DNA of 64,000 nt, from the sequence record NC_070873.1. One strand, written 5' to 3'. Positions 77-13,246 of the stretch are shown here, in pieces (within the stretch, counting starts at the first letter, position 1; every line of letters starts with the position of its first letter). The notes under the pieces are model-generated. The model was not told the DNA's origin, searched no databases, and was given only the letters and a program-made list of their open reading frames with translations. The stretch comes from Escherichia phage St11Ph5. The translations under genes and the position numbers were made by a program.

Positions 77-123
77 ACATGTCATGTATACTAATCCTGC
101 TATTTACTTATGAGGAAATTGAT

Positions 124-957
124 ATGCCAACTTTGAAAGTAGGTTTTAACAAAACCACTAATGTCGCAACTGTACTGGATGCAGGTGGTTCTATCCCGGG
201 TGGTTCCGTAGAAATAGGTACTTTTGTACACCCGGATGCTACCTACCCTGATAGTTTAGTTATCTTTCATGGTGTTCGTGATCTGCTGTATAAATGCTCT
301 GCTAAAAACCCTGCTGAAGAGGGTTTCTGGCCTAACAACATTGTGGATATGCAGTCTATCTCTATTGATATGAAAGCTACTCCACGACTGACTATTGCTA
401 CCAAACTGCCTCGTGTAGTATCTGCTATCGAAGGTGAAGACATCAACTGGCATGTTGATGTAGCAGGTGGTAAAGCACCATTTACTTATAAATGGCAATT
501 CAAAGCTAATACTGCTGGTGCAGCATTCGCTGATATTAGCTCCAGCACTAACCCATCCGCTGCTACTGCAACATTGACCCTTAATGATGTAACAGCTGCT
601 TCCGCTGGTACTTATAAAGTGATTGCTACTGATGCTAATGGAACCACGGTAGAAGATGAGTCGTTGCTGGCTGTAGGCTACTACGAAGCAAGCTCCCTGG
701 TAGCTACTCCTGATTCACTGGCTCTGTCTGTTGCTGCTGATATTGCTGCTGGTAAGACCGTAACAATTGTTGCTATGCCTGTTGGTTCTTCTGCTGGTAC
801 TTTGTCTATCAAGACCGCTCCAGATTCTGCTCGTGCTACGGCTACCATTGCTGGTAATGTACTGACAGTTAAGCCAGTGGCTGCTGGTGATGCTACTTCT
901 GTAGTAGTTACCAACGGTACTGTCGATGTAACTATCTCTGTTACTGTTGCAGAGTAA
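124..957 (+). CDS. Ig-like domain protein, probable capsid decoration protein (N4 gp17-like position)
   Basis: ORF 79..957; preferred start ATG at 124 with GAGGA RBS about 8 nt upstream; Thr/Ala/Val-rich beta-type sequence with AGTYKV Ig-like motif; flanked by terminators. Confidence 0.5.
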   Translation: MPTLKVGFNKTTNVATVLDAGGSIPGGSVEIGTFVHPDATYPDSLVIFHGVRDLLYKCSAKNPAEEGFWPNNIVDMQSISIDMKATPRLTIATKLPRVVSAIEGEDINWHVDVAGGKAPFTYKWQFKANTAGAAFADISSSTNPSAATATLTLNDVTAASAGTYKVIATDANGTTVEDESLLAVGYYEASSLVATPDSLALSVAADIAAGKTVTIVAMPVGSSAGTLSIKTAPDSARATATIAGNVLTVKPVAAGDATSVVVTNGTVDVTISVTVAE

Positions 958-979
958 GAGTATTTCTTTTTGTGGTTAT

Positions 980-1010
980 AGCCCTCCTTAGCGAGGGCTT
1001 TCTTGTATCT
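980..1010 (+). terminator. Rho-independent terminator
   Basis: Stem AGCCCTC / GAGGGCT, loop CTTAGC, followed by T-rich tract. Confidence 0.5.
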
Positions 1011-1024
1011 ATAGGAGAGTAAAA

Positions 1025-1339
1025 ATGGCGCAAAAATTGCGTGTATGGCACATTCCCCAAGTGCCAATGAAGGCATTTCAAGTAGAGACTAATAGTCTTC
1101 AGGAAGCTGTTAAGATTAAGAATGCGTTAGCAGATTATGATCTATTCCAATATGAGAACAATGTCAAAGGCGATTATGCTAATGCTAACGGTATTGAGAT
1201 GTGGGATGAGACTATCTCCGATCAAGAACTAGTGGAGATGGGTTTAGAAGACCGTTGGGTAGATTGGTATATTGAAACTGAAGATGGTTTCTTTGATGAC
1301 CCAGAAGAGTATCTGAATTATCTAATCAAGCAAGTATGA
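1025..1339 (+). CDS. hypothetical acidic protein
   Basis: 104-aa ORF with AGGAG RBS upstream; followed by terminator. Confidence 0.55.
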   Translation: MAQKLRVWHIPQVPMKAFQVETNSLQEAVKIKNALADYDLFQYENNVKGDYANANGIEMWDETISDQELVEMGLEDRWVDWYIETEDGFFDDPEEYLNYLIKQV

Positions 1340-1385
1340 TTGCTTTATTTGGGGTTATAAACCCTGAAATGAAACCCTCAAGTTT

Positions 1386-1415
1386 GACCTCCCTATTAAA
1401 GGGAGGTCTTTTTTT
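1386..1415 (+). terminator. Rho-independent terminator
   Basis: Stem GACCTCCC / GGGAGGTC, loop TATTAAA, followed by TTTTTTT. Confidence 0.55.
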
Positions 1416-1440
1416 GACTTAAACATTCTGGAGCCAGGAA

Positions 1441-1653
1441 ATGTATAAAGAGATTGCATTCTTCTCATTCTTGCTAGGTGGTTTAATAGGTGCAGGATTT
1501 GTAGCTATTTCTAATACCTACTTTGGTTCTACTCCAAATTCTGTAACACAAACCCTCAAGCATGAATGTGAATTAAATATCCCTCGTAATCAAAACTGTG
1601 TAATGCAGTTCGTACCGGAGAAAAATGAATATCCACAATCTACATTTGGTTGA
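1441..1653 (+). CDS. hypothetical small membrane protein
   Basis: 70-aa ORF, N-terminal hydrophobic segment FFSFLLGGLIGAGFVAI; GGA before ATG. Confidence 0.4.
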   Translation: MYKEIAFFSFLLGGLIGAGFVAISNTYFGSTPNSVTQTLKHECELNIPRNQNCVMQFVPEKNEYPQSTFG

Positions 1654-1885
1654 GAAACTGTATGAAGAATACAATGACAACCGACAGCAATTAGCTAGTT
1701 TGAAGAAGTCACCACATATGGTGAAAGTATCATTCAATGGTACGGATTTAGGACCGCAAGCTCGTACAAGAATACTTCCTGAACTGCTGTCATTTTATCA
1801 AAAGAGGATTGCTGTCTTAGAAAAACGCTTTGAGCATTTATGTGTAGATTTATCACCACTCCCAGATGAAGGGGAAGATGAGTGA
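1625..1885 (+). CDS. hypothetical protein
   Basis: 86-aa ORF, start overlaps preceding ORF end. Confidence 0.4.
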   Translation: MNIHNLHLVEKLYEEYNDNRQQLASLKKSPHMVKVSFNGTDLGPQARTRILPELLSFYQKRIAVLEKRFEHLCVDLSPLPDEGEDE

Positions 1886-2067
1886 AATTAACCCAGTCCC
1901 AAGCAATCTTCCTTCGTATGGTTCAAGGTGGCTCTGCCACCAGCAACCGTAATAACAAAACCGCACAGTCCCTTAAGAAGCTGGGCTTAGTTCAGTTCAA
2001 TGCTGGTCTTGGGTGGTCATTAACCCTTATCGGTGTACTTAAACTCAATGAAATGAAAGGTAACTAA
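1882..2067 (+). CDS. hypothetical protein
   Basis: 61-aa ORF with ATGA stop/start overlap with upstream ORF. Confidence 0.35.
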   Translation: MKLTQSQAIFLRMVQGGSATSNRNNKTAQSLKKLGLVQFNAGLGWSLTLIGVLKLNEMKGN

Positions 2068-2397
2068 ATGAAAACTTTACTTAAAGGTATTGCAGTAGCT
2101 GCACTGATAGCTTTAGCTCCAAATGCACAAGCAGTTAAACCAGAACCAATTCTGGAAGGTGCTCAGGCTTATCTGGATGACACTCGTGATGCATTCGGAC
2201 AAGGATTCTTCATGGGCAGTATGATCTCTTACATCGAGAACACTAATAACTGTGTTCCAGATGGTATGAAGTATTCAGACATTCTGCCTAAGATTGCCAA
2301 AGTAGTTATTTATGACTCTGCAATCCTCAAACTGAAGAATACATCTCAAATTGTCGTGTACTCCGTACACAAGGCATATCCCTGCACTAAATCTTAA
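2068..2397 (+). CDS. hypothetical secreted protein
   Basis: 109 aa; N-terminal signal-peptide-like MKTLLKGIAVAALIALAPNAQA. Confidence 0.5.
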   Translation: MKTLLKGIAVAALIALAPNAQAVKPEPILEGAQAYLDDTRDAFGQGFFMGSMISYIENTNNCVPDGMKYSDILPKIAKVVIYDSAILKLKNTSQIVVYSVHKAYPCTKS

Positions 2398-2431
2398 TCA
2401 GTAATCCCATTAGCTTTAGGAGAGTAAGTAA

Positions 2432-3484
2432 ATGGCAAGCATTGACTCCTTGACTGTATGTAATTCACGTCAAGCTCGTAACTTTATTATCCGTGCTCTG
2501 AAAGCAGGTAACGTACCGTTCCTGACTTCATCACCAGGTATGGGTAAATCTGCAATTATTCGTTCTATTGCAGAAGAATTTGGTATGAAGCTGATAGACC
2601 ATCGTCTGTCTACTTCTGCTCCGGAAGACCTTTCTGGCTTACCATTCCGTAATGGCGACCGTGCAGAATTTATTCCTTTCGCTGACCTATTCCCTATTGA
2701 AGGGGATGAAGTACCGGAAGGTTATAATGGCTGGCTCCTGTTCCTTGATGAGTTCAACTCAGCTAAGAAAGAAGTGGTAGCTGCTGCATACAAGCTGATT
2801 CTCGACCGTATGACTGGTCAGAAAAAGCTTCATCCTAATGTGATGATTGTCTGTGCTGGTAACAAAGCCACTGACCGTGCCATTGTTAACCCACTAGGTA
2901 CTGCAATGCAGTCTCGTGTGGTTCACTTCGAAATGGAACTTAACTTCGACATCTTTGTTGAAGATGTAATGATTCCTCAGCAATGGGATGAACGTCTGGT
3001 TGCATTCTTACATGCTAATCCTGGTTATCTGCATGACTTCGACCCAGCACATAAGAATAAAACATTCTGTTGCCCTCGTACCTGGGACTTTGTTAACAAA
3101 GACCTCAAGAACCTGCCAGAAGGTGCTCTGCCTGATGAAGATTCTCTTTACTACGCAGGACACGTTACTGCTGGTAAAGCTACAGAGTTTGTTCAGTTTA
3201 CTCAGGTATACAATCGTATCATTACGATTGAGAAGGTGGTCAAAGACCCATTGGGCTGTGCACTACCCGATGATAACAACCTGTGTTGGGCTACCGTTAA
3301 CCACCTGGCTAACAAAACTACTGAAGAAAACTTCGCTGATGTTCTTCAGTACATTGAACGCTTTAAAACGTTCACCCATAAGATTCTGTACTTCCGTACA
3401 GTAGGCAGAGCATTACCAGAACTACAGGCTACCCCTGAATGGCGTAAGGCTGCTGCTAATATCTCTCGTTACATTCACGGATAA
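2432..3484 (+). CDS. MoxR/CobS-like AAA+ ATPase
   Basis: Walker A SSPGMGKS, Walker B LLFLDEFN, sensor-like VCAGN; 350 aa. Confidence 0.75.
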   Translation: MASIDSLTVCNSRQARNFIIRALKAGNVPFLTSSPGMGKSAIIRSIAEEFGMKLIDHRLSTSAPEDLSGLPFRNGDRAEFIPFADLFPIEGDEVPEGYNGWLLFLDEFNSAKKEVVAAAYKLILDRMTGQKKLHPNVMIVCAGNKATDRAIVNPLGTAMQSRVVHFEMELNFDIFVEDVMIPQQWDERLVAFLHANPGYLHDFDPAHKNKTFCCPRTWDFVNKDLKNLPEGALPDEDSLYYAGHVTAGKATEFVQFTQVYNRIITIEKVVKDPLGCALPDDNNLCWATVNHLANKTTEENFADVLQYIERFKTFTHKILYFRTVGRALPELQATPEWRKAAANISRYIHG

Positions 3485-3491
3485 TCACAAC

Positions 3492-4667
3492 ATGAACCAA
3501 TTTCCTCAGCACACACTTAGTGATGAACAACTCATGCGTGAGTATGACCGTATTCAGGCGCAGGCGTTTCTCGGACGCAGTGCTGCGTTCTTTGGTTCAT
3601 TGCTGTGTAGTCTTAAGTTCTCATGGAAACGTGAGGATTGCCCCACTGCATGTACTGATGGGATAGAACTCCATTTCAACCCAGACTTCTTTATCTGGAT
3701 GTGTCCAGATGCAAGAGAAACAGTATTAATGCATGAACTATGGCATGTAGCATATCTACATGACATCCGTCGTGGAAGCCGTGACCCGGAAATCTGGAAC
3801 CAGGCTTGTGACCACTTCATTAACCTTCAGTTAGAAGAAGATGGTTACAAGTTCACTGGCATTGACAAAGGCATTTGCAAAGACCCTCAATATAAAGGAT
3901 GGGTCGAAGAAGACATCTACGATGACCTGATGAAGAACCCTCAGAAAAGGCAGAAGCCCTCGGGGGGTGCTGGAGCAGGTCTTGCTGGCGACATGAAATC
4001 CCCCACTTCGGGGCAGTCCCAGGGTGCTGTTGTCAACAACGTAGTACGTGCAATGCAAAGCCAGAAAATGGCTGGTGGACAGATGCCCGGTAAGGGTGCT
4101 GGTCGTATGGAAGAGGTTATTACCCAATTCCTTAAACCAGTGGTTCCCTGGCAGGAAGTTCTGATGAACTTCTTTACCGACATTGATGACACACACTATA
4201 CGTGGGCCAGACCTAATCGTCGTTACACTGATATCTATCTACCTTCCCTGGAAGATGATGAAGGACGTTTACGTCACTTAGCCTACTTTGAGGATGTGTC
4301 TGGTTCTATTAGTAGTGCTGACTCTCTGCGTTTTAACTCAGAGGTTGCCTACGTTAAGAGCCAATTCAATCCTAAGAAGATGTCCTTAATTACCTTCGAC
4401 GATATTATCCAGGAAGAGATAGACATCACTGAAGAAGATACTTTTGAAGAGATTAAGATTACAGGTCGTGGTGGTACAAGCCTTGTGCCTGTACGAGATT
4501 GGATTATTAAGAATAAACCAACCGCTGCAATCATATTCTCCGATATGTATGTTCGCCCAATGGAAGAATTGCCATTTGATATCCCTATCATCTGGTGTGT
4601 TCTGAATAATCCTAATGCTACCGTACCTTTTGGGGAGGTAGTTCATATCCCTAAAGGAATGAAATAA
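3492..4667 (+). CDS. VWA-like partner protein with N-terminal HExxH motif (CobT-like)
   Basis: 391 aa directly downstream of AAA ATPase; LMHELWHV motif near N-terminus, Gly-rich linker; assignment by resemblance to MoxR-VWA pairs. Confidence 0.55.
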   Translation: MNQFPQHTLSDEQLMREYDRIQAQAFLGRSAAFFGSLLCSLKFSWKREDCPTACTDGIELHFNPDFFIWMCPDARETVLMHELWHVAYLHDIRRGSRDPEIWNQACDHFINLQLEEDGYKFTGIDKGICKDPQYKGWVEEDIYDDLMKNPQKRQKPSGGAGAGLAGDMKSPTSGQSQGAVVNNVVRAMQSQKMAGGQMPGKGAGRMEEVITQFLKPVVPWQEVLMNFFTDIDDTHYTWARPNRRYTDIYLPSLEDDEGRLRHLAYFEDVSGSISSADSLRFNSEVAYVKSQFNPKKMSLITFDDIIQEEIDITEEDTFEEIKITGRGGTSLVPVRDWIIKNKPTAAIIFSDMYVRPMEELPFDIPIIWCVLNNPNATVPFGEVVHIPKGMK

Positions 4668-5173
4668 TGGTTGTTAATGGTAATTCTCTATATCGTTCTT
4701 CTCAGTTGCTAGATGTCCCTGACCGTAAGATATCCGAGCATGGTGTAAGCTACGGATTGGGTGAAGCTGGTTATGATATTCGTATCAAACAGGATATTAC
4801 CTTCTATCGCTTACTTGGGTTGATTCCAATGGTGAAGGTCGTTGATGGAAATCAAGTATCACGACATTTTGGTAAGTTCACATTGGCTTCAGCAATTGAG
4901 AAGTTCAACATGTCTCCGTCCTGTGTAGCTATCGTTCACGATAAGTCTACATGGGCAAGACGTGCATTATCCGTATTTAATACAGTAATCGAACCAGGGT
5001 GGAAAGGTTGGCTTACTTTAGAGCTTGCCTACCATGGTCGTAAGAAATTGCATATCCCGGCTGGTTCTGGGATAGCTCAAGTATTATTTCATCTGGTTCA
5101 GGAACCTGCTAATTACAATGGCAAGTACATGAACCAGGAAAACAAACCAGTAGCTGCAAGAAGCAGTAAATAA
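4667..5173 (+). CDS. dCTP deaminase-like (dUTPase superfamily) protein
   Basis: 168-aa ORF overlapping upstream stop (ATGA); weak resemblance by eye only. Confidence 0.4.
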   Translation: MVVNGNSLYRSSQLLDVPDRKISEHGVSYGLGEAGYDIRIKQDITFYRLLGLIPMVKVVDGNQVSRHFGKFTLASAIEKFNMSPSCVAIVHDKSTWARRALSVFNTVIEPGWKGWLTLELAYHGRKKLHIPAGSGIAQVLFHLVQEPANYNGKYMNQENKPVAARSSK

Positions 5174-5182
5174 GGAAACAAC

Positions 5183-5392
5183 ATGTCAGTATTTCAAGTA
5201 ACTCATGCAACCTCAGATGTACGCTTAACCATTAATGCTGCAAATGTAATTGCAGTAGAACAGATTCCACAGTCTGACCATGCACGCGTCATATTTGTAG
5301 ATAATAACTATATAGAAACCAAAGAAACCTATCGTTCAGTACGTAATTACCTGAAGAAAGCACTTGCTTCTGCAAGCAAAGACGCTGAGTAA
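5183..5392 (+). CDS. hypothetical protein
   Basis: 69-aa ORF with AGGAAA upstream. Confidence 0.4.
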   Translation: MSVFQVTHATSDVRLTINAANVIAVEQIPQSDHARVIFVDNNYIETKETYRSVRNYLKKALASASKDAE

Positions 5393-5403
5393 GTAGCTGC
5401 CTA

Positions 5404-5430
5404 AATAGCCCAGCATTGTTGGGCTATTTG
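5404..5430 (+). terminator. terminator-like hairpin
   Basis: 9-bp stem AATAGCCCA / TGGGCTATT, loop GCATTGT; weak T-tract. Confidence 0.35.
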
Positions 5431-5465
5431 TGAAGAAACTAACTCAACCCCACATAGGAACCATC

Positions 5466-5717
5466 ATGGAATCTTTAGCAGCAATCCTTGTTATGTTGTT
5501 TGTATTAGCTGTATACCTTATCCCTACTATCATTGCTTTTGCACGAGGCCATGCCTCTAAGTGGGGCATTGGTGTGCTAAACATCGTATTAGGTTGGTCA
5601 CTGGTATTCTGGGTAGTAGCACTGATTTGGGCACTGTCCAATAAAGGAACTACAATCGTTAACGTTGGTAGTGGTAACCAGTACAACGTGTCCCAAACGA
5701 GCAGTAAAGCAGAGTAA
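5466..5717 (+). CDS. superinfection-immunity-like small membrane protein
   Basis: Two predicted TM helices; IPTIIAFARG ... LGWSLVFWVVALIWAL pattern; start ATG 5466 with AGGAA RBS (ORF extends to 5430). Confidence 0.5.
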   Translation: MESLAAILVMLFVLAVYLIPTIIAFARGHASKWGIGVLNIVLGWSLVFWVVALIWALSNKGTTIVNVGSGNQYNVSQTSSKAE

Positions 5718-5789
5718 CTAACCGAAGTATCCCCAAGAGGGTACTTCTGGAAGTTACTTCCAGCTCATTGCTTATCCATCTCCTAACCC

Positions 5790-5820
5790 AAGCCCACCTA
5801 ACCCGTGGGCTTTTTTATTT
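5790..5820 (+). terminator. Rho-independent terminator
   Basis: Stem AAGCCCAC / GTGGGCTT followed by TTTTTTATTT. Confidence 0.55.
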
Positions 5821-5848
5821 AAAGGTACTTCTTGTGACAAGTAGACGA

Positions 5849-6212
5849 ATGGTAAGTCTATCCTACAAGGACTGGACTTCGGTAAGCTGGAACAAACTGC
5901 AATGCTTGCTTTAGGTAAAACTATCCATGACCAAGTGGAAAGTGAAATTGAAGCAGATATTTATACAAGAATGCAGGTTCTTATTAAGAAAAATGGGTTA
6001 CTACCAGATCCCTTCATTCATACATTCCCCCAGAACCTCATCTGAAATCTAAGGTAGACCGAATCATAGATAAGTTCTGGCTTAACCCATGTAAGGATGA
6101 CACGCAACTTTATCTGGCTCAAATACAAAAGAATCCTCGTACTAAGGATGTATTCAAAGGCAAGAGCACTACCCATCACTACCCCTGGTATAGAAGAGGT
6201 AGTAAATACTAA
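5849..6212 (+). pseudogene. possible frame-disrupted gene (three short ORFs in successive -1 frames)
   Basis: ORFs 5849-5914, 5902-6045 and 5988-6212 overlap, each -1 relative to the previous; no single ORF over 75 codons; frame-0 piece has no ATG. Confidence 0.25.
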
Positions 6213-6655
6213 TGCGTATTCCATTCCTAAGAAAAAGAGAACGAAATCCTGTTCTTTATAATAAAGGCATAGAGGATGAGTATGAACTCAACCGTAAAGC
6301 TCGTTCCTACACAACAAAATTATTCATGGGGACTAAAAACCCTGATAGATTATTGGACTTTGTTTTTGAACAAGTCTTTATCATATACAGCTTAGCTATG
6401 TCTGCTGGTTCACAAGAAGTGAGTGATAAGGCAAGAGATGCTCTCTGTATGCTCCGTAAAGAGTATGAAGCCCTCATGTATGAAGACTTATACTCCTTTA
6501 AAAAAGAAACCGCTGTAGCGTGTTCTGTGGCTCTTACTGAAGGTGTAGCAGTATTACAGGAACTACCTCGTAGTGAGTTTAAGCTGGTATACGTTCAGGT
6601 TAAGAAAATCACAGAGACGAGAAGTGGTATCACCAACTATCTAAGGTCATTCTAA
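6212..6655 (+). CDS. hypothetical protein
   Basis: 147-aa ORF; start overlaps upstream stop (TAATG); ATGA overlap with thyX downstream. Confidence 0.5.
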   Translation: MRIPFLRKRERNPVLYNKGIEDEYELNRKARSYTTKLFMGTKNPDRLLDFVFEQVFIIYSLAMSAGSQEVSDKARDALCMLRKEYEALMYEDLYSFKKETAVACSVALTEGVAVLQELPRSEFKLVYVQVKKITETRSGITNYLRSF

Positions 6656-7599
6656 TGATTAAGGCAACTGTCATTGCAGATTCCGTTCATCCAGAAACAG
6701 GAACTCGTATCACAACCTTTGAATTGGTTTACCCCCGATTCATTCACAGTGAGTTTATGACTCACCGTGTATTTAACCGTAACGCTTCAAGCAGTCGTGC
6801 TATCCCAACTGCTAAGTTAATCGAACAGGTTCGTAATGAACCAGTGATGCCAAGTCACTGGGGTAAGAACCAGAAAGGAATGCAGGCAAGTGAAGAACTC
6901 ACTCCTATGGAGATTAAGGATGCTGAGTTCATTTGGGAAAATGCTGCCTCTGTTGCTGCTGTGTATGCTGAACAACTTCGTCGCGGACAAGTACATAAGC
7001 AGATTGTTAATCGTATTCTGGAACCATTCACGCATATCCGTGTAGTGGTAACTTCAACTAGCTGGGCTAACTTCTATGGATTGCGTGACCACAAAGATGC
7101 ACAACCAGAGATTTGTAAACTGGCTCAAGCAATGCGTAAGGCACATGAGGAAAGTACGCCAAGGGCATTACCATATGGGCAATGGCATCTACCTTATATT
7201 GCTCATATTGACCGTGTTGGGGCTTACAATTTCTGCAAACGTAATCGAATTACACGCGATGAACCAAGTGATGCAGAAGTGCATGGACTACTTCTCAAAG
7301 TAAGTGCTGCACGTTGTGCTCGTGCCTCATATAACAATTTTGAGGGACGTCCCTCTACTATCGAAGAAGACCTTGGCTTATTCGCTAAGTTAGTGGAAAA
7401 CCAACCTATTCATGCTTCCCCAACAGAACATCAAGCTACGCCTATGAACCTTAGTGAGAAGTATGTGAATAACATGAACCCAGTTACCTGGGAACAAGGT
7501 GTTACATCCATGGATAAAGAAGGTAATCTGTACTCAGGTAACCTGCTCCACTTTATCCAATTCCGTAAGTTAATTCCTGGTGAGACTATTACTGAATGA
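6655..7599 (+). CDS. thyX: flavin-dependent thymidylate synthase ThyX
   Basis: ThyX signature RHRxxxxxS-type motif in THRVFNRNASSSRAIP; 314 aa. Confidence 0.8.
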   Translation: MIKATVIADSVHPETGTRITTFELVYPRFIHSEFMTHRVFNRNASSSRAIPTAKLIEQVRNEPVMPSHWGKNQKGMQASEELTPMEIKDAEFIWENAASVAAVYAEQLRRGQVHKQIVNRILEPFTHIRVVVTSTSWANFYGLRDHKDAQPEICKLAQAMRKAHEESTPRALPYGQWHLPYIAHIDRVGAYNFCKRNRITRDEPSDAEVHGLLLKVSAARCARASYNNFEGRPSTIEEDLGLFAKLVENQPIHASPTEHQATPMNLSEKYVNNMNPVTWEQGVTSMDKEGNLYSGNLLHFIQFRKLIPGETITE

Positions 7600-7834
7600 A
7601 AAACTAGCTCTATATGCAATGCTAACTAGTGGCTTACTCCCATTAATTTTCGCATACAAAGTCGCCTTTGTATTAGAAACAGATATGCAGTTCATTCGAG
7701 CCAGTATTCTGTTATTAATAAGTGAGATTGGTTTGTGGTGTCTTTATTATATTGCTCGTGACTATGAAGCAATTCGCGAGCAAGAAGAAGTGAAAAAACA
7801 AATGATACGTTTTGTAGAACAAAATCGTAAGTAA
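7580..7834 (+). CDS. hypothetical membrane protein
   Basis: 84-aa ORF with hydrophobic segments; overlaps thyX 3-prime end; followed by terminator. Confidence 0.4.
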   Translation: MRLLLNEKLALYAMLTSGLLPLIFAYKVAFVLETDMQFIRASILLLISEIGLWCLYYIARDYEAIREQEEVKKQMIRFVEQNRK

Positions 7835-7840
7835 ACCTAA

Positions 7841-7866
7841 GACCTCCTCCGGGAGGTCTTTTTTTG
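7841..7866 (+). terminator. Rho-independent terminator
   Basis: Stem GACCTCC / GGAGGTC, loop TCCG, followed by TTTTTTTT. Confidence 0.55.
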
Positions 7867-7894
7867 GTTTCAATTAACTCTTTTAGGAGGGCAT

Positions 7895-8107
7895 ATGCCT
7901 GCTAAATACCGTATCAAAGACACACCTGTAATGTGTGAGGGTGAGAAAGGTGACATTGTATATGCCTGTATCCAGGATGATTTCAATGCTGCTCAAATGC
8001 TAACCCAAATGACCAATACACTGCATGTATCTGTAACACTGGACCCTACCGGTGACTATCCATGCTTCCCTATTCCTGCCCATAACCTGGAGCAAATCCA
8101 TGATTAA
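7895..8107 (+). CDS. hypothetical protein
   Basis: 70-aa ORF with AGGAGG RBS. Confidence 0.45.
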   Translation: MPAKYRIKDTPVMCEGEKGDIVYACIQDDFNAAQMLTQMTNTLHVSVTLDPTGDYPCFPIPAHNLEQIHD

Positions 8108-8414
8108 TCCTGAAGTAATTCATAGTAAAACCGGTAAGGCTATCCCACTTAGTGAGATTGCAGTTACAGGTGATATTGCTGCTTGCCCGGCAAACATTGC
8201 CTCTTTATGTATGTGCATTGCTGCATTGGCAGAGGAACGTAAGTTATGGCTGGAACCAAGCAAAGAAATGGTACTGGCTGGTATGGCTGAACTGAATGCA
8301 CTTCTGAAAGAAATGTATGACGAGAATGGTCAATTAGTTGAACCAACTGATGACCAAATATCAGACACTGTAGTATTTGTCCTTCAAGCAATGGCAGGTA
8401 AACGTAATGGCTAA
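8100..8414 (+). CDS. hypothetical protein
   Basis: ORF 8052..8414; preferred ATG 8100 overlapping upstream stop. Confidence 0.4.
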   Translation: MINPEVIHSKTGKAIPLSEIAVTGDIAACPANIASLCMCIAALAEERKLWLEPSKEMVLAGMAELNALLKEMYDENGQLVEPTDDQISDTVVFVLQAMAGKRNG

Positions 8415-8598
8415 TGTAAATATTGCCTCAGAGAAAACGCATAGCATTCAGATTAATGGATTAACTGAGTATCAGGTCTTATTCCTAATGAATGCTTTTC
8501 AAAATAGTCCAGTGGGCCACCATCCTAATGATGAACCACGAGAAGAAGCTGAACTACGTAAAGCTATTTTTGATAAGTGTAAACAAGTTCTAATGTAA
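8407..8598 (+). CDS. hypothetical protein
   Basis: ORF 8377..8598; preferred ATG 8407 overlapping upstream stop. Confidence 0.35.
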   Translation: MANVNIASEKTHSIQINGLTEYQVLFLMNAFQNSPVGHHPNDEPREEAELRKAIFDKCKQVLM

Positions 8599-8625
8599 GC
8601 AACATTTAATCTGGAGAGTAAATAA

Positions 8626-11193
8626 ATGTTAGTTGCAGATACCAATGAAGTAGCTACCTCAGCGACACTGGGTGGCAAAGAAACAATTGCCTTTGGCATC
8701 TCTGATGACCCGGCATTCTTCCATGTATTAAGTACTTCCCTGTATAACAATCCTACTCTGGCAGTAGTTCGTGAAACTATCTGTAACAGTTGGGATGCTC
8801 ATATAGAAGCTGGTAAGACTGATAATCCTATTCGTATCACTATTGATACAGACAACTTTATTACCTTCCGTGATTACGGTAGTGGTATTCCAGATGAACT
8901 CATTGGTTCCATTTATGGTGTCTATGGTGCATCTACTAAGAAGTCCAACAGTAGTGTTACCGGTGGCTTTGGTCTGGGATGTAAATCTCCATTCGCTTAT
9001 ACAGATAGCTTCCAGGTTACTTCATGGAACCAAGGAAAGATGTCGGTATATAACATAGCTAAGGCTGCAATTGAGAATGATGGTAAGCCTGGTATTGTTC
9101 CTATTGTTACTAACATTCCTACTGAGGAATCCGGTTTGGAAGTTAAATTTCAGTTAGGTAAACATGATGTAAATACCTTCGTACATTACATCACATCAAT
9201 CGTATTTAATGGTGAGATTAAAGCTGAGCTTAGTATTCCTAAACTAGTTAAAACAGAAGCAGGAAATAGTATTCAACAAGGTGACTACACTTTACTGAAT
9301 ACGCTGGGAATGTCATTTGAACCTGGTTCATATGATATGTCTGATAGCTGGTATCAGGGCTATATGGGTAACAGTAACATATTCGTTCGTTACGGCAACG
9401 TAATGTACCCAATAGTATCTAGCCCAGCTAGTGAAGAAGCTGTAGGTCTTATCCTCAACTTTATGAACATCATTGGTGCATCTAATTTAGTAGTTCAGGC
9501 TGCACCGGATACTCTAGCTATTGCCCCTAGTCGAGAAACACTGTCTAATCAGAAGTTAACCGACGATGGTATTACTACTCTATGTGTAGATTTAGTAAAC
9601 CGTATGGAGAAAGAGATTAAGGCTAAGATTCCTGAAGCTATTAAACAGGTTGAGGAATACGCCTCTAAATCCCCTACTTGCTTCTGGACCTATCCATCTT
9701 TTATGCTTGCTGTTACAGACAGAATCGTTCAACGTTATATGTCCTCTAGTTTGTGGGCTAAGCAACGTAAGCATCACATCAAGCATTGGCGTAATCTATC
9801 CAATAAAGCATTATTAGCTCGTCCTGAATATGCAGGTCTTAAGAAACTGTATGGTAAGGCTATGCGTGCTCTTAAGGATACTCGTGAAGAAAGTACATAC
9901 TCCCCATTCCATGAATTAGTATATCGCCATCTACACTTACCTCAGCTTGCTGCTTTAAAAGCTACTGGTATTAAGTGGTCTGGTTACATAGTGAACCAGG
10001 GTAACAGTATTGACTTGGAGAAGGGTAAACTCGCTGACTACTTTAGGATATTCCATAACTCTCATCAGAGTATTGGCATATTCACTACCAAGAACGTTGT
10101 AGTTACCCGACGTTTATCTGATTGTGCAGACTCTTTCTCATACTTCCCCGAATACAACCGAGGTGACCTGGAGCGTACAGCTTTTGTTCACTTAGTTGGT
10201 CCTAAGAAGGGTGCAGCAGAAGAAGCTGTATCTAAGTTCACTGCTATGGGTTATCGGGTGATTGACCTTACTCAATATAATGAGTGGGACAAACCAACCA
10301 ACTACCGCAGAGAGCAGGCTAAGATAGCTGCTGAGAAACGGGCTAAGACAATAGCTGCCAATAAAACCAAAGCAGGAGGTAAAACTAATGCTCTGATTTC
10401 ATTGAATGCAGTTCTCGGCACTACCCCTGTACGGAATAAAAGTGGGGATTGGGATTCTAAACCGTACATTGACAAGGATTTTACTGACCCGAGCTTCCAT
10501 GAGAAATATGGTTTCGTTGAGGTAGAGCAGCCTAAGTACTATGTACTAGCCAATCAGATTAGTTCTGGTAGTCCAATAACTGCCCGTATTGGAACCATGT
10601 GGAAATGGTATGAGTTATCTGATGAGATGAAAGCAGAGACTGTTGTCTGTCGTAATCAAATCGAGGCTAACAAAGCCAAACGACGAGGTGCTATCCACAT
10701 TGATGATGTTCGCTTTAATGAGTTGATGTCAGTTATTACCAGTAAAGGCTTCAAGAAGTATGTTACTGAACACCGCATCGGTATTCTGGATTACATAGGA
10801 CTGGATGACAGAGAGTACTGGGAAATCCTCGACATACTGGGTCTAACATTCAAACCGTTACAGAATCTGATTTTTAAACCAGAGTATGAATGGGCATATG
10901 ACTTTCTACGGAGTCGACCACATGACAACAAAGAAAAACTTGTTGAAATGGGCTGTATTAAATCAGTAGATGACTTAGAGCCATATAGAATGATGGCTAA
11001 TCCACGTAATCATAAGTACTTTAAAATTCTTAATGATTACAAAGAATTATTCAGTCATAGCTGGAATAAAAATGACATCCTACAGACGCTGGACTTAGGT
11101 AGTTTGGTAAAACACCTTAAGAAGAATCCAGAGGATATTCCTGGGTTTAAGTCCCTCTACCGTAACCGTCTAAATAAACTGAAAGGTAACTAA
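8626..11193 (+). CDS. rIIA: rIIA-like protein (histidine-kinase-type ATPase fold)
   Basis: 855 aa; N-terminal HATPase_c-like motifs (ICNSWDAH, FRDYGSGIP, GGFGLG); followed by second large ORF as in rIIA/rIIB pairs. Confidence 0.6.
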   Translation: MLVADTNEVATSATLGGKETIAFGISDDPAFFHVLSTSLYNNPTLAVVRETICNSWDAHIEAGKTDNPIRITIDTDNFITFRDYGSGIPDELIGSIYGVYGASTKKSNSSVTGGFGLGCKSPFAYTDSFQVTSWNQGKMSVYNIAKAAIENDGKPGIVPIVTNIPTEESGLEVKFQLGKHDVNTFVHYITSIVFNGEIKAELSIPKLVKTEAGNSIQQGDYTLLNTLGMSFEPGSYDMSDSWYQGYMGNSNIFVRYGNVMYPIVSSPASEEAVGLILNFMNIIGASNLVVQAAPDTLAIAPSRETLSNQKLTDDGITTLCVDLVNRMEKEIKAKIPEAIKQVEEYASKSPTCFWTYPSFMLAVTDRIVQRYMSSSLWAKQRKHHIKHWRNLSNKALLARPEYAGLKKLYGKAMRALKDTREESTYSPFHELVYRHLHLPQLAALKATGIKWSGYIVNQGNSIDLEKGKLADYFRIFHNSHQSIGIFTTKNVVVTRRLSDCADSFSYFPEYNRGDLERTAFVHLVGPKKGAAEEAVSKFTAMGYRVIDLTQYNEWDKPTNYRREQAKIAAEKRAKTIAANKTKAGGKTNALISLNAVLGTTPVRNKSGDWDSKPYIDKDFTDPSFHEKYGFVEVEQPKYYVLANQISSGSPITARIGTMWKWYELSDEMKAETVVCRNQIEANKAKRRGAIHIDDVRFNELMSVITSKGFKKYVTEHRIGILDYIGLDDREYWEILDILGLTFKPLQNLIFKPEYEWAYDFLRSRPHDNKEKLVEMGCIKSVDDLEPYRMMANPRNHKYFKILNDYKELFSHSWNKNDILQTLDLGSLVKHLKKNPEDIPGFKSLYRNRLNKLKGN

Positions 11194-11197
11194 TCTG

Positions 11198-13246
11198 ATG
11201 AAAATCGAACTGATTTCTATCATCGCACTGGCAGTTGACAGTCGTAATCTTACATTGTGGAAGCCTGATGGCTCCACGATTGTATATCCTCAGAGCGACC
11301 CACGGGTTGCTCGCATTGTATCTGAAGCACAAACCAAAGGTTTGGGAACTACTAAAGACCAGATAGAAGTAAACATTGCACCAGAAGCAAACCTGCGTAC
11401 TGAATATCTGGAAGCAGAGAAGAACACTAATGGATTCGTCCGTTTCTTCAAGGTAGCTAAAGCTAAACTTAAAGAGTTCTTCCAGGATGGTACAGGTATC
11501 CAACCTGCACACATAGTCTCAGATATTAAGCTGGGTAATCCTACTAAGACATTAGTATCTAAAGCCATGGATACCTTCCTGGCTGTGCAGGCTAATGAAC
11601 CAGAAGTAACTGTAACAGACGGTTGCTACGACAGACGTGACAATCTGATGTGGGTTACTGGCTGGGATAAGGACCATAACCATCCTGCACTGGTTCGCTT
11701 TATTAACGATGTATTGTATTGGGGTTATGCCCATACCGACCGTATTCTTGCACAAGAGTGGCCTATTGCAATCCGTGCAGTATCCGATGATGAAATGAGT
11801 GAGTTTGCTAAACAAGCTAAGCACATCAAAGGAGTACACATTGTATTTACCAGTCGTGATGTAACTCCATTTCCTTACGTAGAAGTAGCTAAAACTACGA
11901 ACCAGGATAAACTGGCTGCTGCTTCTGAGAAGTTGGCTGCATTGGGGGCTATTAGCACCGATGACGCTAACTTCCACACTGAAGTGAAAGAAGACGAAGT
12001 GGTTGTTGCTGTTACCAACAATGGGGTTATTCCTGGAGTTGAAAACCTGCATCGTCACTTACGTCAGTCTGCCAAGCTGAAAGACTACAAGGGCTTTACT
12101 AAGTTCCTTGAGCGTCTGGCTCCGGTTATTAAAGACCGTCTGCACTCAGTAGAAGACCTGATGAAGTTCATGGAGACTGCTGAATTACCTATTGCTGATG
12201 ATGGTTCAATCCTGTTCCTCAAACGTCTTCAGTATAAAGACAAAGAAAATGGTAAACGTGTATTCGTTGACTGTCACTCAGGTAACATTCGTCAGTGGGT
12301 AGGCTGCAAAGTGCAGGTACGTGAAGACCTGGTAGACCCTGACCGTCGTCAGGACTGCTCTAATGGTCTACACGTAGCATCCATGAGCTATATCCGTAGC
12401 TTCGGTGGTAACGTAACTATCCTTGGTAAAGTAGCACCAGAAGATGTATTTGCTGTTCCTCAGTACAGCACCAATAAGATGCGTGTATCTGCATATCATA
12501 TTATTGCTGAACTACCAGAAGAGGAACGTAATAACGTTAACAACGGTATCTATCTGTCTAAGACAGAAGTAGGTAAGAAATTGCTTAACGATGCTATCGT
12601 TGGGAACCATAGTTCACCCACCACACTTATTATGGTTGGTGGTCATCGTGGAACTAACCTCAAATACACCAATCTCACATCTGGTTCTGTAGAACAATTC
12701 CGTACAATTGCTAGTAAAGAAGCACTGAACATGGAAGAGTCACTGAATGAAGCTGTAGCTGCTGAACCAGTGAAGGCTACTGACCTTAAACCTGTTATTA
12801 AGAAGGCTCCTACTGTGAAAGAACAAATCCAGGAACTGGTCAAAGAGTTCCTTAGTGCAACAACACCGGAAGATAAGTTAGCTGCTGCTGACCTTCTGGT
12901 AGAACTGCGTTCCAAAGCCAGAAAGCCTTGGGGTGCATTCGATGTAGGTAGTGATGTAGTAGCTAAGATTGCTGATGTACGTGCAACCTATACAGCTAAA
13001 CCTATTGGTAAACCTAAAGCTGTTAAGCAGGATAAGACAGTTAAACCCACTAAATCTAAGCCTGCTATTAATGGTACTAATGCCAATATCATCAGAGGTT
13101 ATCTAGCAGATAGTGGTATGTCCGATTATCAGAAAGCCCACTCCATTCATGACCTGAAACGTGCAGCTAAGAAGTCATACGCTGCTATGGGTCTTACTGA
13201 AGAAGAGTGCAAAGCCATTGATAAACTGAAGCACCATCTTAAGTAA
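11198..13246 (+). CDS. rIIB: rIIB-like protein
   Basis: 682-aa ORF immediately downstream of rIIA-like gene; assignment by synteny only. Confidence 0.45.
   Translation: MKIELISIIALAVDSRNLTLWKPDGSTIVYPQSDPRVARIVSEAQTKGLGTTKDQIEVNIAPEANLRTEYLEAEKNTNGFVRFFKVAKAKLKEFFQDGTGIQPAHIVSDIKLGNPTKTLVSKAMDTFLAVQANEPEVTVTDGCYDRRDNLMWVTGWDKDHNHPALVRFINDVLYWGYAHTDRILAQEWPIAIRAVSDDEMSEFAKQAKHIKGVHIVFTSRDVTPFPYVEVAKTTNQDKLAAASEKLAALGAISTDDANFHTEVKEDEVVVAVTNNGVIPGVENLHRHLRQSAKLKDYKGFTKFLERLAPVIKDRLHSVEDLMKFMETAELPIADDGSILFLKRLQYKDKENGKRVFVDCHSGNIRQWVGCKVQVREDLVDPDRRQDCSNGLHVASMSYIRSFGGNVTILGKVAPEDVFAVPQYSTNKMRVSAYHIIAELPEEERNNVNNGIYLSKTEVGKKLLNDAIVGNHSSPTTLIMVGGHRGTNLKYTNLTSGSVEQFRTIASKEALNMEESLNEAVAAEPVKATDLKPVIKKAPTVKEQIQELVKEFLSATTPEDKLAAADLLVELRSKARKPWGAFDVGSDVVAKIADVRATYTAKPIGKPKAVKQDKTVKPTKSKPAINGTNANIIRGYLADSGMSDYQKAHSIHDLKRAAKKSYAAMGLTEEECKAIDKLKHHLK

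What the first reader, a model, noticed from the sequence alone, without database searches (positions are those of the whole stretch)
2432..4667. MoxR-type AAA ATPase paired with a VWA protein carrying an N-terminal HExxH
A clear AAA+ ATPase (Walker A SSPGMGKS, Walker B LLFLDEFN) is followed 8 nt later by a protein with LMHELWHV and a Gly-rich linker, resembling the MoxR-VWA (CobS/CobT-like) pairs found in phages. The function of such pairs in phage infection is not well defined, and the HExxH suggests a protease or chaperone-like activity.
Basis: partly seen in the sequence, partly recalled or inferred. Interest (0 to 1): 0.45.

Follow-up and report, generated by a model that had tools for sequence, protein, structure and literature searches.

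The report
N4 gp24/gp25 ATPase–VWA-peptidase gene pair
These two genes are the already-catalogued, always-conserved but never-tested "gp24/gp25" pair of N4-like phages: an ATP-driven ring motor and a partner protein that combines a metal-dependent docking domain with a probable zinc protease. It is a correctly read, ordinary member of a known gene pair whose target is still unknown.

Summary

The window is a Gamaleyavirus (G7C/IME11-like N4-like coliphage). The two ORFs are orthologues of coliphage N4 gp24 and gp25 (62% and 61% identity), two of the 14 published core genes of N4-like phages, listed as "unknown" and "vWFA".

The same MoxR plus vWA-with-metallopeptidase architecture was described for jumbo phages in 2021. 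I also find the pair in rV5-like and Wroclawvirus phages and on conjugative plasmids beside type IV secretion genes.

By analogy with NorQ/NorD and CbbQ/CbbO, the most likely mechanism has three steps. A gp24 hexamer holds one gp25 through its VWA domain. The MIDAS site grips an acidic residue on a target protein. ATP hydrolysis then remodels the target while the tethered zincin cleaves it.

The target is unknown and no experiment exists. Novelty: already known. Interest is modest.

The parts
1386..1408 (+). Intrinsic-terminator-like hairpin with a T-run. Likely upstream boundary of the transcription unit that holds the pair.
   Evidence: 9-bp stem with 6 GC pairs, followed by TTTTTTT.
2418..2422 (+). 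Shine-Dalgarno AGGAG, 9 nt upstream of the ORF A start codon.
   Evidence: Read directly from the sequence.
2432..3484 (+). ORF A, 350 aa. AAA+ ATPase of the AAA_5/MoxR branch and orthologue of N4 gp24. A C-terminal helical half (residues ~174-350) is specific to this family.
2528..2551 (+). Walker A motif SSPGMGKS (residues 33-40). P35, G38, K39 and S40 are invariant.
2597..2728 (+). Insert between strands beta2 and beta3 (residues 56-99), in the position of a helix-2 insert or pore loop. It carries the invariant block D56 R58 L59 S60 T61 P64 D66 G69 P71 (DHRLSTSAPEDLSGLP). This is the candidate contact for the VWA partner.
   Evidence: Invariance. Low-confidence loop at 65-72. Aligned to the midasin 'LSDQTDLMDLFG' segment. 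Same motif in the rV5-like, Wroclawvirus and plasmid ATPases. A group I intron interrupts exactly this motif in relative PW8. The contact role is inferred from NorQ/NorD.
2735..2758 (+). Walker B motif LLFLDEFN (residues 102-109). D106 and E107 are invariant.
2861..2917 (+). Sensor-1 N144 at the end of strand beta4, followed by the conserved post-sensor-1 loop (D148, I151, T157, A158, Q160, S161). It ends in R162, the candidate arginine finger.
   Evidence: Invariance. Loop has low pLDDT at 149-159. The roles are assigned by position and are inferred.
3077..3079 (+). R216 in the invariant motif TFCCPRTW. This is the candidate sensor-2 arginine. Distant homologues have [ST]PR[SA]W here.
   Evidence: The comparison with the MoxR 'SPR' sensor-2 motif is from my own knowledge and was not tested.
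3492..4667 (+). ORF B, 391 aa. Zincin-like domain, disordered linker and VWA/MIDAS domain. Orthologue of N4 gp25. No clear SD precedes it, which suggests translational coupling to ORF A.
3540..3941 (+). N-terminal putative zinc metallopeptidase domain (residues ~17-150; Pfam DUF2201_N).
   Evidence: 2.1e-56; 1.1e-34 for residues 1-158 alone. The model is confident here, pLDDT ~80-92, with three short strands followed by the HExxH helix.
3732..3746 (+). HExxH motif (H81 E82 L83 W84 H85), invariant.
3759..3824 (+). Candidate third metal ligands. H90 is His in most homologues and Asp in a few. The next helix carries the invariant motif N103-x-A105-x-D107-xx-I110-N111.
   Evidence: The ligand role is inferred and no geometry was checked.
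3942..4271 (+). Gly-rich, largely disordered linker (residues ~151-260). It nevertheless carries invariant motifs: F213-L214-x-P216...W220 and W238-x-R-P-N-R243-R244...Y249-L250-P251.
   Evidence: pLDDT below 50 for residues 158-164, 202-204, 211-221 and 232-256. Invariance. P216, R243 and P251 also invariant across lineages.
4278..4649 (+). VWA domain (residues 263-386; Pfam DUF2201). MIDAS residues are D268-x-S270-x-S272 (nt 4293-4307), T329 (nt 4476-4478) and D351 (nt 4542-4544). The C-terminal motif is P379-F380-G381.
4667..5173 (+). dCTP deaminase/dUTPase-like gene (N4 gp26 position). Its ATG overlaps the ORF B stop (TAATG), so it is co-transcribed and probably translationally coupled. 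It is context, and has not been shown to be part of the machine.
   Evidence: Same order in N4 and in L004.
5790..5812 (+). Intrinsic-terminator-like hairpin with a T-run. Likely downstream boundary of the transcription unit.

Best explanation
The two genes are the Gamaleyavirus orthologues of coliphage N4 gp24 and gp25, a two-protein machine of the MoxR-AAA+/VWA class.

Shown by the data:
- ORF A has every catalytic AAA+ residue and the AAA_5/MoxR-type architecture.
- ORF B is built like NorD, CbbO and ViaA: an N-terminal specificity domain, a disordered linker and a VWA domain with a complete MIDAS site. Its N-terminal domain is a zincin-like HExxH module.
- The two genes travel together in at least four phage lineages and on conjugative plasmids.

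Inferred mechanism:
1. gp24 forms a hexameric ring.
2. One gp25 docks its VWA domain on the ring. The conserved helix-2-insert loop and post-sensor-1 loop of gp24 contact the VWA domain and its conserved hydrophobic C-terminus.
3. The MIDAS metal ion captures an acidic side chain on a target protein.
4. ATP hydrolysis rotates or pulls the VWA domain and stretches the linker, remodelling the target.
5. The tethered zinc peptidase cleaves what is exposed.

In effect this would be an ATP-dependent metalloprotease split over two polypeptides.

Timing and target: the pair sits in the early/middle, rightward-transcribed block with nucleotide-metabolism genes, and homologues occur on plasmids that make no virions. 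I therefore think the target is more likely an intracellular host or element-encoded protein, handled while the element establishes and replicates, than a virion component. The identity of the target is unknown.

How the confidence breaks down: about 0.95 for the identity (N4 gp24/gp25 orthologues, MoxR-class AAA+ with a VWA/MIDAS-zincin partner), about 0.55 for ATP-driven remodelling coupled to cleavage, and about 0.35 for a non-virion target.
For: Identity:
- 62% and 61% full-length identity to N4 gp24 and gp25, with the same gene order gp24-gp25-dCTP deaminase-...-ThyX-rIIA.
- gp24 and gp25 are 2 of the 14 core genes of N4-like phages and are middle transcripts in N4.

ATPase class:
- Midasin is the only PDB sequence hit.
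- AAA_5 scores 20.2 bits against a cut-off of 22, and the full-length plasmid homologue passes at 25.7 bits.
- Walker A/B, N144, R162 and R216 are invariant.

Partner protein:
- DUF2201_N 2e-56 and DUF2201 2e-34.
- HExxH and the DxSxS...T...D MIDAS set are invariant in 30 homologues and across five lineages at 23-30% identity, so both sites are under selection.

Co-inheritance of the two genes:
- Asteriusvirus, adjacent.
- Vequintavirus, 3.6 kb apart, hhalign probability 99.4%.
- Wroclawvirus, probability 99.9%.
- Mydovirus.
- Conjugative plasmids beside type IV secretion genes, probability 99.9%.

[quoted passage not shown] The authors propose this is general for MoxR/VWA couples.

Operon: SD before ORF A, a 7-nt gap, a TAATG overlap with the next gene, and flanking terminators.
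Against: - No experiment on this pair in any phage was found.
- Peptidase activity is only predicted. The zincin fold of the N-domain could not be compared with solved peptidases, because VWA hits filled both fold-search lists and no sequence match to a solved peptidase exists.
- The third metal ligand is not identified.
- Whether the short (~125 aa) VWA domain has a pore-inserting finger was not tested.
- Hexamer formation and the gp24-gp25 contact are inferred by analogy only.
- The published NorQD model argues against threading of targets through MoxR pores, so 'unfold and degrade' in the FtsH or Clp sense is unlikely. Cleavage may be limited processing.
- The preference for a non-virion target rests on gene position and on plasmid homologues, which could have diverged in function.
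- In Asteriusvirus the pair lies directly after genes annotated 'structural protein'.
Confidence: 0.55

Rival explanations
1. Virion-assembly chaperone with a maturation protease. This is the published proposal for the same architecture in jumbo phages. The MoxR-VWA pair would fold or assemble a structural component, as the p618/p892 pair does for the tails of Acidianus two-tailed virus, and the zincin would trim structural proteins.
For: - Proposed explicitly for the MoxR plus vWA-with-N-terminal-metallopeptidase pair of group 2.2 jumbo phages.
- In Asteriusvirus A4 the pair directly follows four genes annotated 'structural protein'.
- In this window an Ig-like 'Hoc-like head decoration' gene (79-957) lies in the same rightward block, so structural genes are not excluded from this region.
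- Core-gene status in N4-like phages fits a role in building a conserved virion.
Against: - N4 gp24 and gp25 are middle transcripts.
- The pair is translationally linked to a dCTP deaminase-like gene and lies among ThyX, rIIA/B and replication genes, on the strand opposite the late block (GC-skew switch near 28-30 kb).
- Homologous cassettes occur on conjugative plasmids, which have no virions.
- The parts of the RPP1/RLP1 virion mass-spectrometry table that I read list N4 gp52, 54, 56, 59 and 67 homologues but not gp24 or gp25. A chaperone need not be in the virion, so this point is weak.
Confidence: 0.22
2. Non-proteolytic maturation factor. Like NorQD (iron into NO reductase), CoxDE, CbbQO (Rubisco) or the Mg/Co chelatases, the pair would open a client enzyme to load or exchange a metal or cofactor. 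The client could be one of the neighbouring nucleotide-metabolism enzymes. The HExxH domain would act as a metal-binding or client-recognition module, not as a peptidase.
For: - Every characterised MoxR/VWA couple cited in the papers read here is a remodeller or metal inserter, and none is a protease.
- Nucleotide-metabolism genes recur next to the pair in unrelated lineages: dCTP deaminase and ThyX here and in N4, thymidylate synthase in Asteriusvirus, thymidylate kinase and an HD hydrolase in Mydovirus.
Against: - The full HExxH, including the catalytic Glu82, is invariant across lineages. Metal binding alone would not require the Glu.
- The plasmid cassettes have no nucleotide-metabolism neighbours.
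- No shared client gene was found across lineages.
Confidence: 0.12
3. ORF B is an HNH endonuclease, as labelled in PHROGs (phrog_1314) and in many RefSeq phage records, including N4 gp25.
For: The label appears and in the annotations listed.
Against: - No HNH family appears in Pfam scans of the whole protein or its halves, even at E<=10.
- The entire length is accounted for by DUF2201_N plus DUF2201.
- The fold is VWA.
- The label probably spread from true HNH homing-endonuclease genes inserted nearby in some relatives.
Confidence: 0.01
4. A CobS/CobT-type cobaltochelatase remnant, as the cobS genes of marine phages are usually annotated.
For: CobS is an AAA_5-type ATPase and CobT carries a VWA domain, so the class is the same (my own knowledge; a CobSTN preprint is listed).
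Against: - No CobS or CobT profile matched either protein in Pfam or NCBIfam.
- ORF B's N-domain is a zincin-like module, which CobT lacks.
- No CobN-like gene lies nearby.
Confidence: 0.02

Closest known systems
Coliphage N4 gp24 (ATPase) and gp25 (vWFA protein), core genes of N4-like phages (Schitoviridae)
   Same: Orthologous, with 62% and 61% identity over the full length. Same order and same neighbours (gp26 dCTP deaminase-like, ThyX-like gp30, rIIA/rIIB). Same Pfam content.
   Different: Only sequence divergence, plus a shorter gap between the genes (7 nt here, 167 nt in N4). N4's own pair has no assigned function either.
MoxR AAA+ / vWA-with-N-terminal-metallopeptidase pair of group 2.2 jumbo phages (Iyer et al. 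2021, PMC7824862)
   Same: Same two-gene architecture. The Asteriusvirus pair is homologous to both window proteins: ATPase BLASTP 1e-25, and the partner has DUF2201_N plus DUF2201.
   Different: - About 25-28% identity, and the jumbo-phage proteins are larger (441 and 467 aa).
- The genomic neighbourhood there includes structural genes.
- The published role in virion assembly and processing is a proposal, not a result.
NorQ/NorD and CbbQ/CbbO (bacterial MoxR-class AAA+ with a VWA adaptor)
   Same: - The partner has the same layout of N-domain, disordered linker and VWA with MIDAS.
- The conserved helix-2-insert and post-sensor-1 loops, and a conserved hydrophobic C-terminus on the partner, parallel the mapped NorQ-NorD interfaces.
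   Different: - NorD and CbbO have no peptidase domain and are much larger.
- Their clients are metabolic enzymes.
- The VWA domain here is minimal (~125 aa), and a 'finger' was not demonstrated.
- Sequence similarity is at fold level only (13-15% identity).
Acidianus two-tailed virus p618 (MoxR ATPase) / p892 (VWA)
   Same: A virus-encoded MoxR-VWA couple, cited as a chaperone for tail development.
   Different: It has no metallopeptidase domain and is an archaeal virus. I did not compare the sequences.
FtsH, and Wss1/Spartan with Cdc48/p97 (AAA+ motors working with HExxH zinc proteases)
   Same: A functional analogy only: an ATP-driven motor coupled to a zincin protease.
   Different: - FtsH is one polypeptide with a classic-clade AAA module and an M41 peptidase. 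No M41 or WLM/SprT profile matched here.
- The motor here belongs to the AAA_5/MoxR branch.
- Coupling here would run through a VWA/MIDAS adaptor.

Membership tests
AAA+ ATPase, AAA_5/MoxR branch (dynein, midasin, CbbQ, NorQ, MoxR) | Walker A GxxGxGK[ST] and Walker B hhhhDE | tested here: met
   SSPGMGKS (33-40) and LLFLDE (102-107). G38, K39, S40, D106 and E107 are invariant in 30 homologues.
AAA+ ATPase, AAA_5/MoxR branch (dynein, midasin, CbbQ, NorQ, MoxR) | Sensor-1 polar residue, arginine finger and sensor-2 arginine | tested here: inconclusive
   N144, R162 and R216 are invariant and sit at the expected places relative to beta4, beta5 and the lid. Their roles are assigned by position only.
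AAA+ ATPase, AAA_5/MoxR branch (dynein, midasin, CbbQ, NorQ, MoxR) | Helix-2 insert and pre-sensor-1 beta-hairpin | tested here: inconclusive
   A ~40-residue insert with short strands lies between beta2 (52-58) and beta3 (100-106), and short strands lie between helix 113-125 and beta4. The insert aligns with the corresponding midasin segment. It is modelled at low confidence, and the 3D coordinates could not be inspected.
AAA+ ATPase, AAA_5/MoxR branch (dynein, midasin, CbbQ, NorQ, MoxR) | Match to the Pfam AAA_5 (PF07728) or AAA_3 model above the curated threshold | tested here: inconclusive
   The window protein scores 17.4 bits (whole) and 20.2 bits (N-half) against a cut-off of 22. bpMoxR scores 0.0054. 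The full-length plasmid homologue (hhalign probability 99.9%) scores 25.7 bits and passes.
AAA+ ATPase, AAA_5/MoxR branch (dynein, midasin, CbbQ, NorQ, MoxR) | Nearest solved structures belong to the branch | tested here: met
   [not shown]
AAA+ ATPase, AAA_5/MoxR branch (dynein, midasin, CbbQ, NorQ, MoxR) | Genetic pairing with a VWA-domain partner | tested here: met
   Adjacent here, in N4, in Asteriusvirus and on plasmids. Within 3-4 kb in Vequintavirus, Mydovirus and Wroclawvirus.
AAA+ ATPase, AAA_5/MoxR branch (dynein, midasin, CbbQ, NorQ, MoxR) | Hexameric ring with ATPase activity | not testable with these tools
   Needs biochemistry or a multimer prediction.
VWA domain with MIDAS | Rossmann-like alpha/beta VWA fold | tested here: met
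   [not shown]
VWA domain with MIDAS | MIDAS motif DxSxS ... T ... D | tested here: met
   D268, S270, S272, T329 and D351 are invariant in 30 homologues and across five lineages.
VWA domain with MIDAS | Pore-inserting 'finger' typical of MoxR-associated VWA domains | not tested
A candidate is the hairpin around residues 303-327 that leads into T329, but this is conjecture.
Zincin-like metallopeptidase (Pfam DUF2201_N, PF13203) | HExxH on a helix preceded by a small beta-sheet | tested here: met
   H81, E82 and H85 are invariant. The model has strands 42-45, 53-55 and 59-62, then helix 72-87 carrying the motif, at pLDDT ~90. DUF2201_N scores 2.1e-56.
Zincin-like metallopeptidase (Pfam DUF2201_N, PF13203) | Third zinc ligand | tested here: inconclusive
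   The candidates are H90 (His, or Asp in a few sequences) and the invariant D107 on the next helix. No geometry was checked.
Zincin-like metallopeptidase (Pfam DUF2201_N, PF13203) | Structural similarity to solved zincins, and peptidase activity | not tested
   The fold-search lists were filled by VWA hits. There is no sequence match to any solved peptidase. Activity needs an assay.
N4 gp24/gp25 orthologous group (core genes of N4-like phages) | Full-length similarity to N4 gp24 and gp25, with conserved synteny, in an N4-like genome | tested here: met
   E=7e-173 and 2e-177, at 62% and 61% identity. Same neighbours. The window is ~94% identical in DNA to Gamaleyavirus genomes.
CobS/CobT cobaltochelatase subunits | Match to CobS/CobT profiles and presence of a CobN partner | tested here: not met
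   No such family appears in the Pfam or NCBIfam scans. There is no CobN-like neighbour.
HNH endonuclease (the label carried by phrog_1314 and RefSeq) | HNH/beta-beta-alpha-metal motif and a match to an HNH profile | tested here: not met
   No HNH Pfam family appears even at E<=10 on the domain halves.
Known anti-phage defence systems (PADLOC) | Match to a defence-system protein model | tested here: not met
   Only a sub-significant DolB hit (E 0.0065, 13.8 bits) for ORF A, and none for ORF B.

The most novel reading that the evidence does not exclude
The pair could be a distinct kind of ATP-dependent protease, built from a MoxR-type ring and a separate subunit that joins a MIDAS 'hook' to a zinc peptidase. 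Mobile elements of very different kinds (N4-like, rV5-like and jumbo phages, and conjugative plasmids) would carry it to remove or process one conserved host protein when they establish in a cell. Examples of such a target would be a defence or DNA-bound protein.

This would make gp24/gp25 a general 'establishment' or counter-defence module, not a virion chaperone.
Probability: 0.25. Interest if true: 0.6.

Novelty: already known. Interest (0 to 1): 0.28.

Why it matters
gp24 and gp25 are two of only 14 genes shared by all N4-like phages. Related pairs occur in several other virulent phage groups and on conjugative plasmids, and the protein family has more than 21,000 clusters at 50% identity. 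Despite this, no function has been tested.

Finding the target would fill a gap in the biology of a phage family that is widely used as a model and in phage therapy. It would also add the first protease-bearing member to the MoxR/VWA class, whose known members insert metals or reactivate enzymes.

For this window, though, the finding adds nothing new to what genome annotations and the 2021 comparative study already contain.

Tried and rejected
1. **Solved relatives of ORF B by sequence.** A single-sequence search found none and a profile search gave only a spurious hit at E=1.3.
3. **NCBIfam and PADLOC.** Nothing useful was returned.
4. **Genome-collection scan for cellular relatives.** It returned only five close, N4-like loci. 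The plasmid tblastn was more informative.
5. **A conserved third component.** I tested the ~300-aa gene upstream of the DUF2201 gene in plasmids and rV5-like phages. These genes are conserved within each lineage, but show no similarity between lineages or to any window ORF.
6. **rV5-like immediate upstream gene as the ATPase.** Rejected. The real partner is 3.6 kb away on the other strand.
7. **The 'HNH endonuclease' and 'anti-sigma factor' labels** on family members. No profile evidence supports either.
8. **The CobS/CobT reading.** No profile match.
9. **Literature searches for functional data** on N4 gp24/gp25, DUF2201 or phage MoxR-VWA pairs. They returned only genome descriptions and one comparative-genomics proposal. 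One search failed on a too-short term.
Full report
**What is there.** All quoted motifs are present.
- ORF A is preceded by an AGGAG Shine-Dalgarno sequence.
- ORF B starts 7 nt after ORF A's stop, with no clear ribosome-binding site of its own.
- ORF B's stop overlaps the start of the next gene (TAATG), a dCTP deaminase/dUTPase-like protein.
- Strong terminator-like hairpins at 1386-1408 and 5790-5812 bracket this block.

**Which genome.** The region is about 94% identical in DNA to some 50 sequenced *Gamaleyavirus* coliphages, including vB_EcoP-ZQ2, IME11, Bp4 and G7C relatives. These are N4-like phages of the family *Schitoviridae*.
- Proteins 98% and 97% identical to ORF B and ORF A are already in public collections.
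- Against N4 itself, ORF A is 62% identical to gp24 and ORF B is 61% identical to gp25, both over the full length.
- The neighbours are the same: gp26 dCTP deaminase-like, ThyX-like gp30 and rIIA/rIIB.
- Published comparisons list gp24 ("unknown") and gp25 ("vWFA domain") among the 14 core genes of N4-like phages, and state that they are middle transcripts in N4. Other genome papers tabulate them as "putative ATPase, AAA superfamily" and [quoted passage not shown], function unknown.

**ORF A.**
- Profiles: Pfam gives the generic AAA family (5.6e-6) and AAA_5 just under threshold. The N-terminal half alone scores 20.2 bits against a cut-off of 22, with a weak match to the MoxR domain of ternary systems.
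- Solved relatives: the only one by sequence is midasin. It aligns over Walker A and the loop that follows.
- Conservation in 30 homologues at 51-87% identity: Walker A (G38 K39 S40), Walker B (D106 E107), N144, R162 and R216 are all invariant. So is a long loop motif, DHRLSTSxPEDLxGLP, in the insert between strands 2 and 3.
- A plasmid homologue that aligns over the whole length (hhalign probability 99.9%) passes the AAA_5 threshold on its own.

"MoxR-type" is therefore a fair description. More precisely, it is the AAA_5 (dynein/midasin/CbbQ/NorQ) side of that group. The C-terminal helical half matches no Pfam family.

**ORF B.**
- Profiles: Pfam matches DUF2201_N, "putative metallopeptidase domain" (2.1e-56, residues 17-253), and DUF2201, "VWA-like domain" (2e-34, residues 263-386).
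- Model: pLDDT 77. It has two confident domains joined by a partly disordered, Gly-rich linker.
- Motifs: the MIDAS residues D268-x-S270-x-S272, T329 and D351 are invariant. So are H81-E82-x-x-H85 and N103-x-A105-x-D107 on the following helix. H90 is His, or Asp in a few sequences.
- Across lineages: all of these except H90 remain invariant when N4-like, Wroclawvirus, Asteriusvirus, Vequintavirus, Mydovirus and Avunavirus proteins are aligned at 23-30% identity.
- Linker: it carries invariant motifs (FLxP...W; WxRPNRR...YLP) in segments that the model cannot place. That pattern is what one expects of a partner- or substrate-binding segment.
- Family size: a profile search of 1.84 billion cluster representatives finds 21,312 clusters at E<=1e-3 and 5,149 at E<=1e-30.
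- Labelling: the "HNH endonuclease" label that PHROGs and RefSeq attach to this family has no profile support.

**Is the pairing real?** Yes. The ATPase partner turned up in every lineage I checked.

| Lineage or replicon | Arrangement | Evidence |
|---|---|---|
| Asteriusvirus A4 | adjacent | BLASTP 1e-25 |
| rV5-like Vequintavirus | 3.6 kb away, divergent strand | hhalign 99.4% |
| Wroclawvirus | 3 kb upstream | hhalign 99.9% |
| Mydovirus | annotated ATPase about 4 kb away | |
| Conjugative plasmids (*Burkholderia*, *Cupriavidus*) | ATPase, ~300-aa gene, DUF2201 protein, next to type IV secretion genes | |

N4's own GenBank notes read "similar to S. coel. protein 1 / protein 2". No third gene is shared between lineages.

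[quoted passage not shown] By analogy with the MoxR-VWA pair needed for tail development of Acidianus two-tailed virus, they proposed a role in virion assembly with proteolytic processing. I found no experimental test of this or of N4 gp24/gp25.

**Most likely mechanism.** The best-studied relatives are NorQ/NorD and CbbQ/CbbO. In NorQ/NorD:
- One VWA protein plugs the concave face of the ATPase hexamer.
- A finger from the VWA domain reaches into the pore and contacts conserved helix-2-insert residues.
- The hydrophobic C-terminus of the VWA protein binds the post-sensor-1 loop.
- ATP-driven rotation stretches the disordered linker between the VWA domain and the N-terminal domain.
- The MIDAS site and the N-terminal domain hold the client.
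- The authors argue that this mode is general for MoxR/VWA couples and that it excludes threading of the client through the pore.

The window pair has the matching parts:
- a conserved helix-2-insert loop and a conserved, flexible post-sensor-1 loop in ORF A;
- a conserved hydrophobic C-terminal motif (VPFG...HI), a linker with conserved motifs and a perfect MIDAS site in ORF B.

What differs is that the N-terminal domain is a zincin-like module whose catalytic Glu is invariant. I therefore read the pair as an ATP-driven, MIDAS-targeted remodelling machine with a built-in peptidase: limited, targeted cleavage of a gripped client. The domain identities and co-inheritance are shown. The assembly, the force transmission and the peptidase activity are inferred.

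**Which target?** Three observations bear on this:
- The pair is a middle gene set in N4. It lies on the rightward early/middle strand (GC-skew switch near 28-30 kb) and is translationally linked to a nucleotide-metabolism gene.
- Nucleotide-metabolism genes recur nearby in unrelated lineages.
- Homologous cassettes sit on conjugative plasmids, which build no virions.

These points lean against a purely virion-directed role and towards an intracellular host or element protein. They do not exclude the published proposal, because in Asteriusvirus the pair follows structural genes, and plasmid and phage copies may differ in function. A non-proteolytic, metal-inserting role like that of NorQD is a further possibility, but it fits poorly with the invariant catalytic Glu.

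**Verdict.** The feature is an ordinary, well-conserved member of a gene pair that is already catalogued and already described at the level of domain architecture. Its function remains an open, testable question. I score interest as modest for that reason alone.

Noticed in passing
L013 (Escherichia phage vB_EcoP_PW8) ~836-1703; corresponds to window ~2624-2626: In some close relatives the gp24 gene is split by an insertion of ~865 bp carrying an HNH endonuclease gene. PW8 was inspected; U1G shows the same 'ATPase (x2)' pattern in its annotation.

The insertion lies exactly within the codons of the invariant pore-loop motif EDL|SGLP. The junctions fit a group I intron (the exon ends in U and the insert ends in G). 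Rfam's group I intron model matches at 25.6 bits, below its gathering score of 50 (E=4.3e-4).

This also explains the 68-aa 'phrog_21479' and the truncated ATPase clusters P0141, P0145 and P0180.
   Followed up: partly
window 3492-4667 and its homologues in RefSeq and PHROGs: The gp25 family is widely mislabelled 'HNH endonuclease' (phrog_1314; RefSeq N4 gp25 and many others). In rV5-like phages it is labelled 'putative anti-sigma factor'. Neither label has profile support.
   Followed up: yes
L014 (Burkholderia ambifaria pBMC401) 3935-7197; L015 (Cupriavidus necator pBB2) 3970-7251: Conjugative or MPF_T-type plasmids carry a three-gene cassette: a gp24-like ATPase, an unknown ~300-aa protein and a gp25-like protein. 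In pBMC401 it lies immediately next to VirB-type type IV secretion genes.

101 plasmid records hold a gp25 relative, mostly from Burkholderia and Rhodococcus.
   Followed up: partly
L004 (Mesorhizobium yinganensis, 727-kb contig) 4854-12279; L003 (Roseococcus MAG, 297-kb contig): An N4-like gene block (ATPase, DUF2201 protein, dCTP deaminase-like, then a ThyX-like gene about 3.6 kb further on) lies inside large bacterial contigs.

This could be an integrated N4-like element or an assembly chimera. N4-like phages are generally regarded as strictly virulent.
   Followed up: partly
L002 (contig of a MAG labelled 'archaeon', 69 kb): A contig the size of a phage genome encodes a gp25 protein 78% identical to the window's, yet it is binned in an 'archaeon' MAG. 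This is almost certainly a coliphage-like contig that was mis-binned.
   Followed up: no
window 2068-2397 (+): A 109-aa protein with a signal-peptide-like N-terminus lies directly upstream of ORF A. It has a weak Pfam match to Rap1a type VI secretion immunity proteins (E 0.005, below threshold) and is annotated 'tai4 protein' in a relative.
   Followed up: no
window 79-957 (+): An Ig-like protein, annotated 'Hoc-like head decoration protein' in a relative, is encoded in the early/middle rightward block just after the RNAP subunit genes. So this block is not free of structural genes.
   Followed up: no
window 5430-5717 (+): A small two-helix membrane protein, annotated 'superinfection immunity protein' in a relative, is the last gene before the terminator at 5790-5812.
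   Followed up: no
window 900-6700: Sigma-70-like promoter matches are depleted relative to shuffled sequence (5 found, 13.6 +/- 3.4 expected). This fits transcription of the region by the phage's own RNA polymerases.
   Followed up: no
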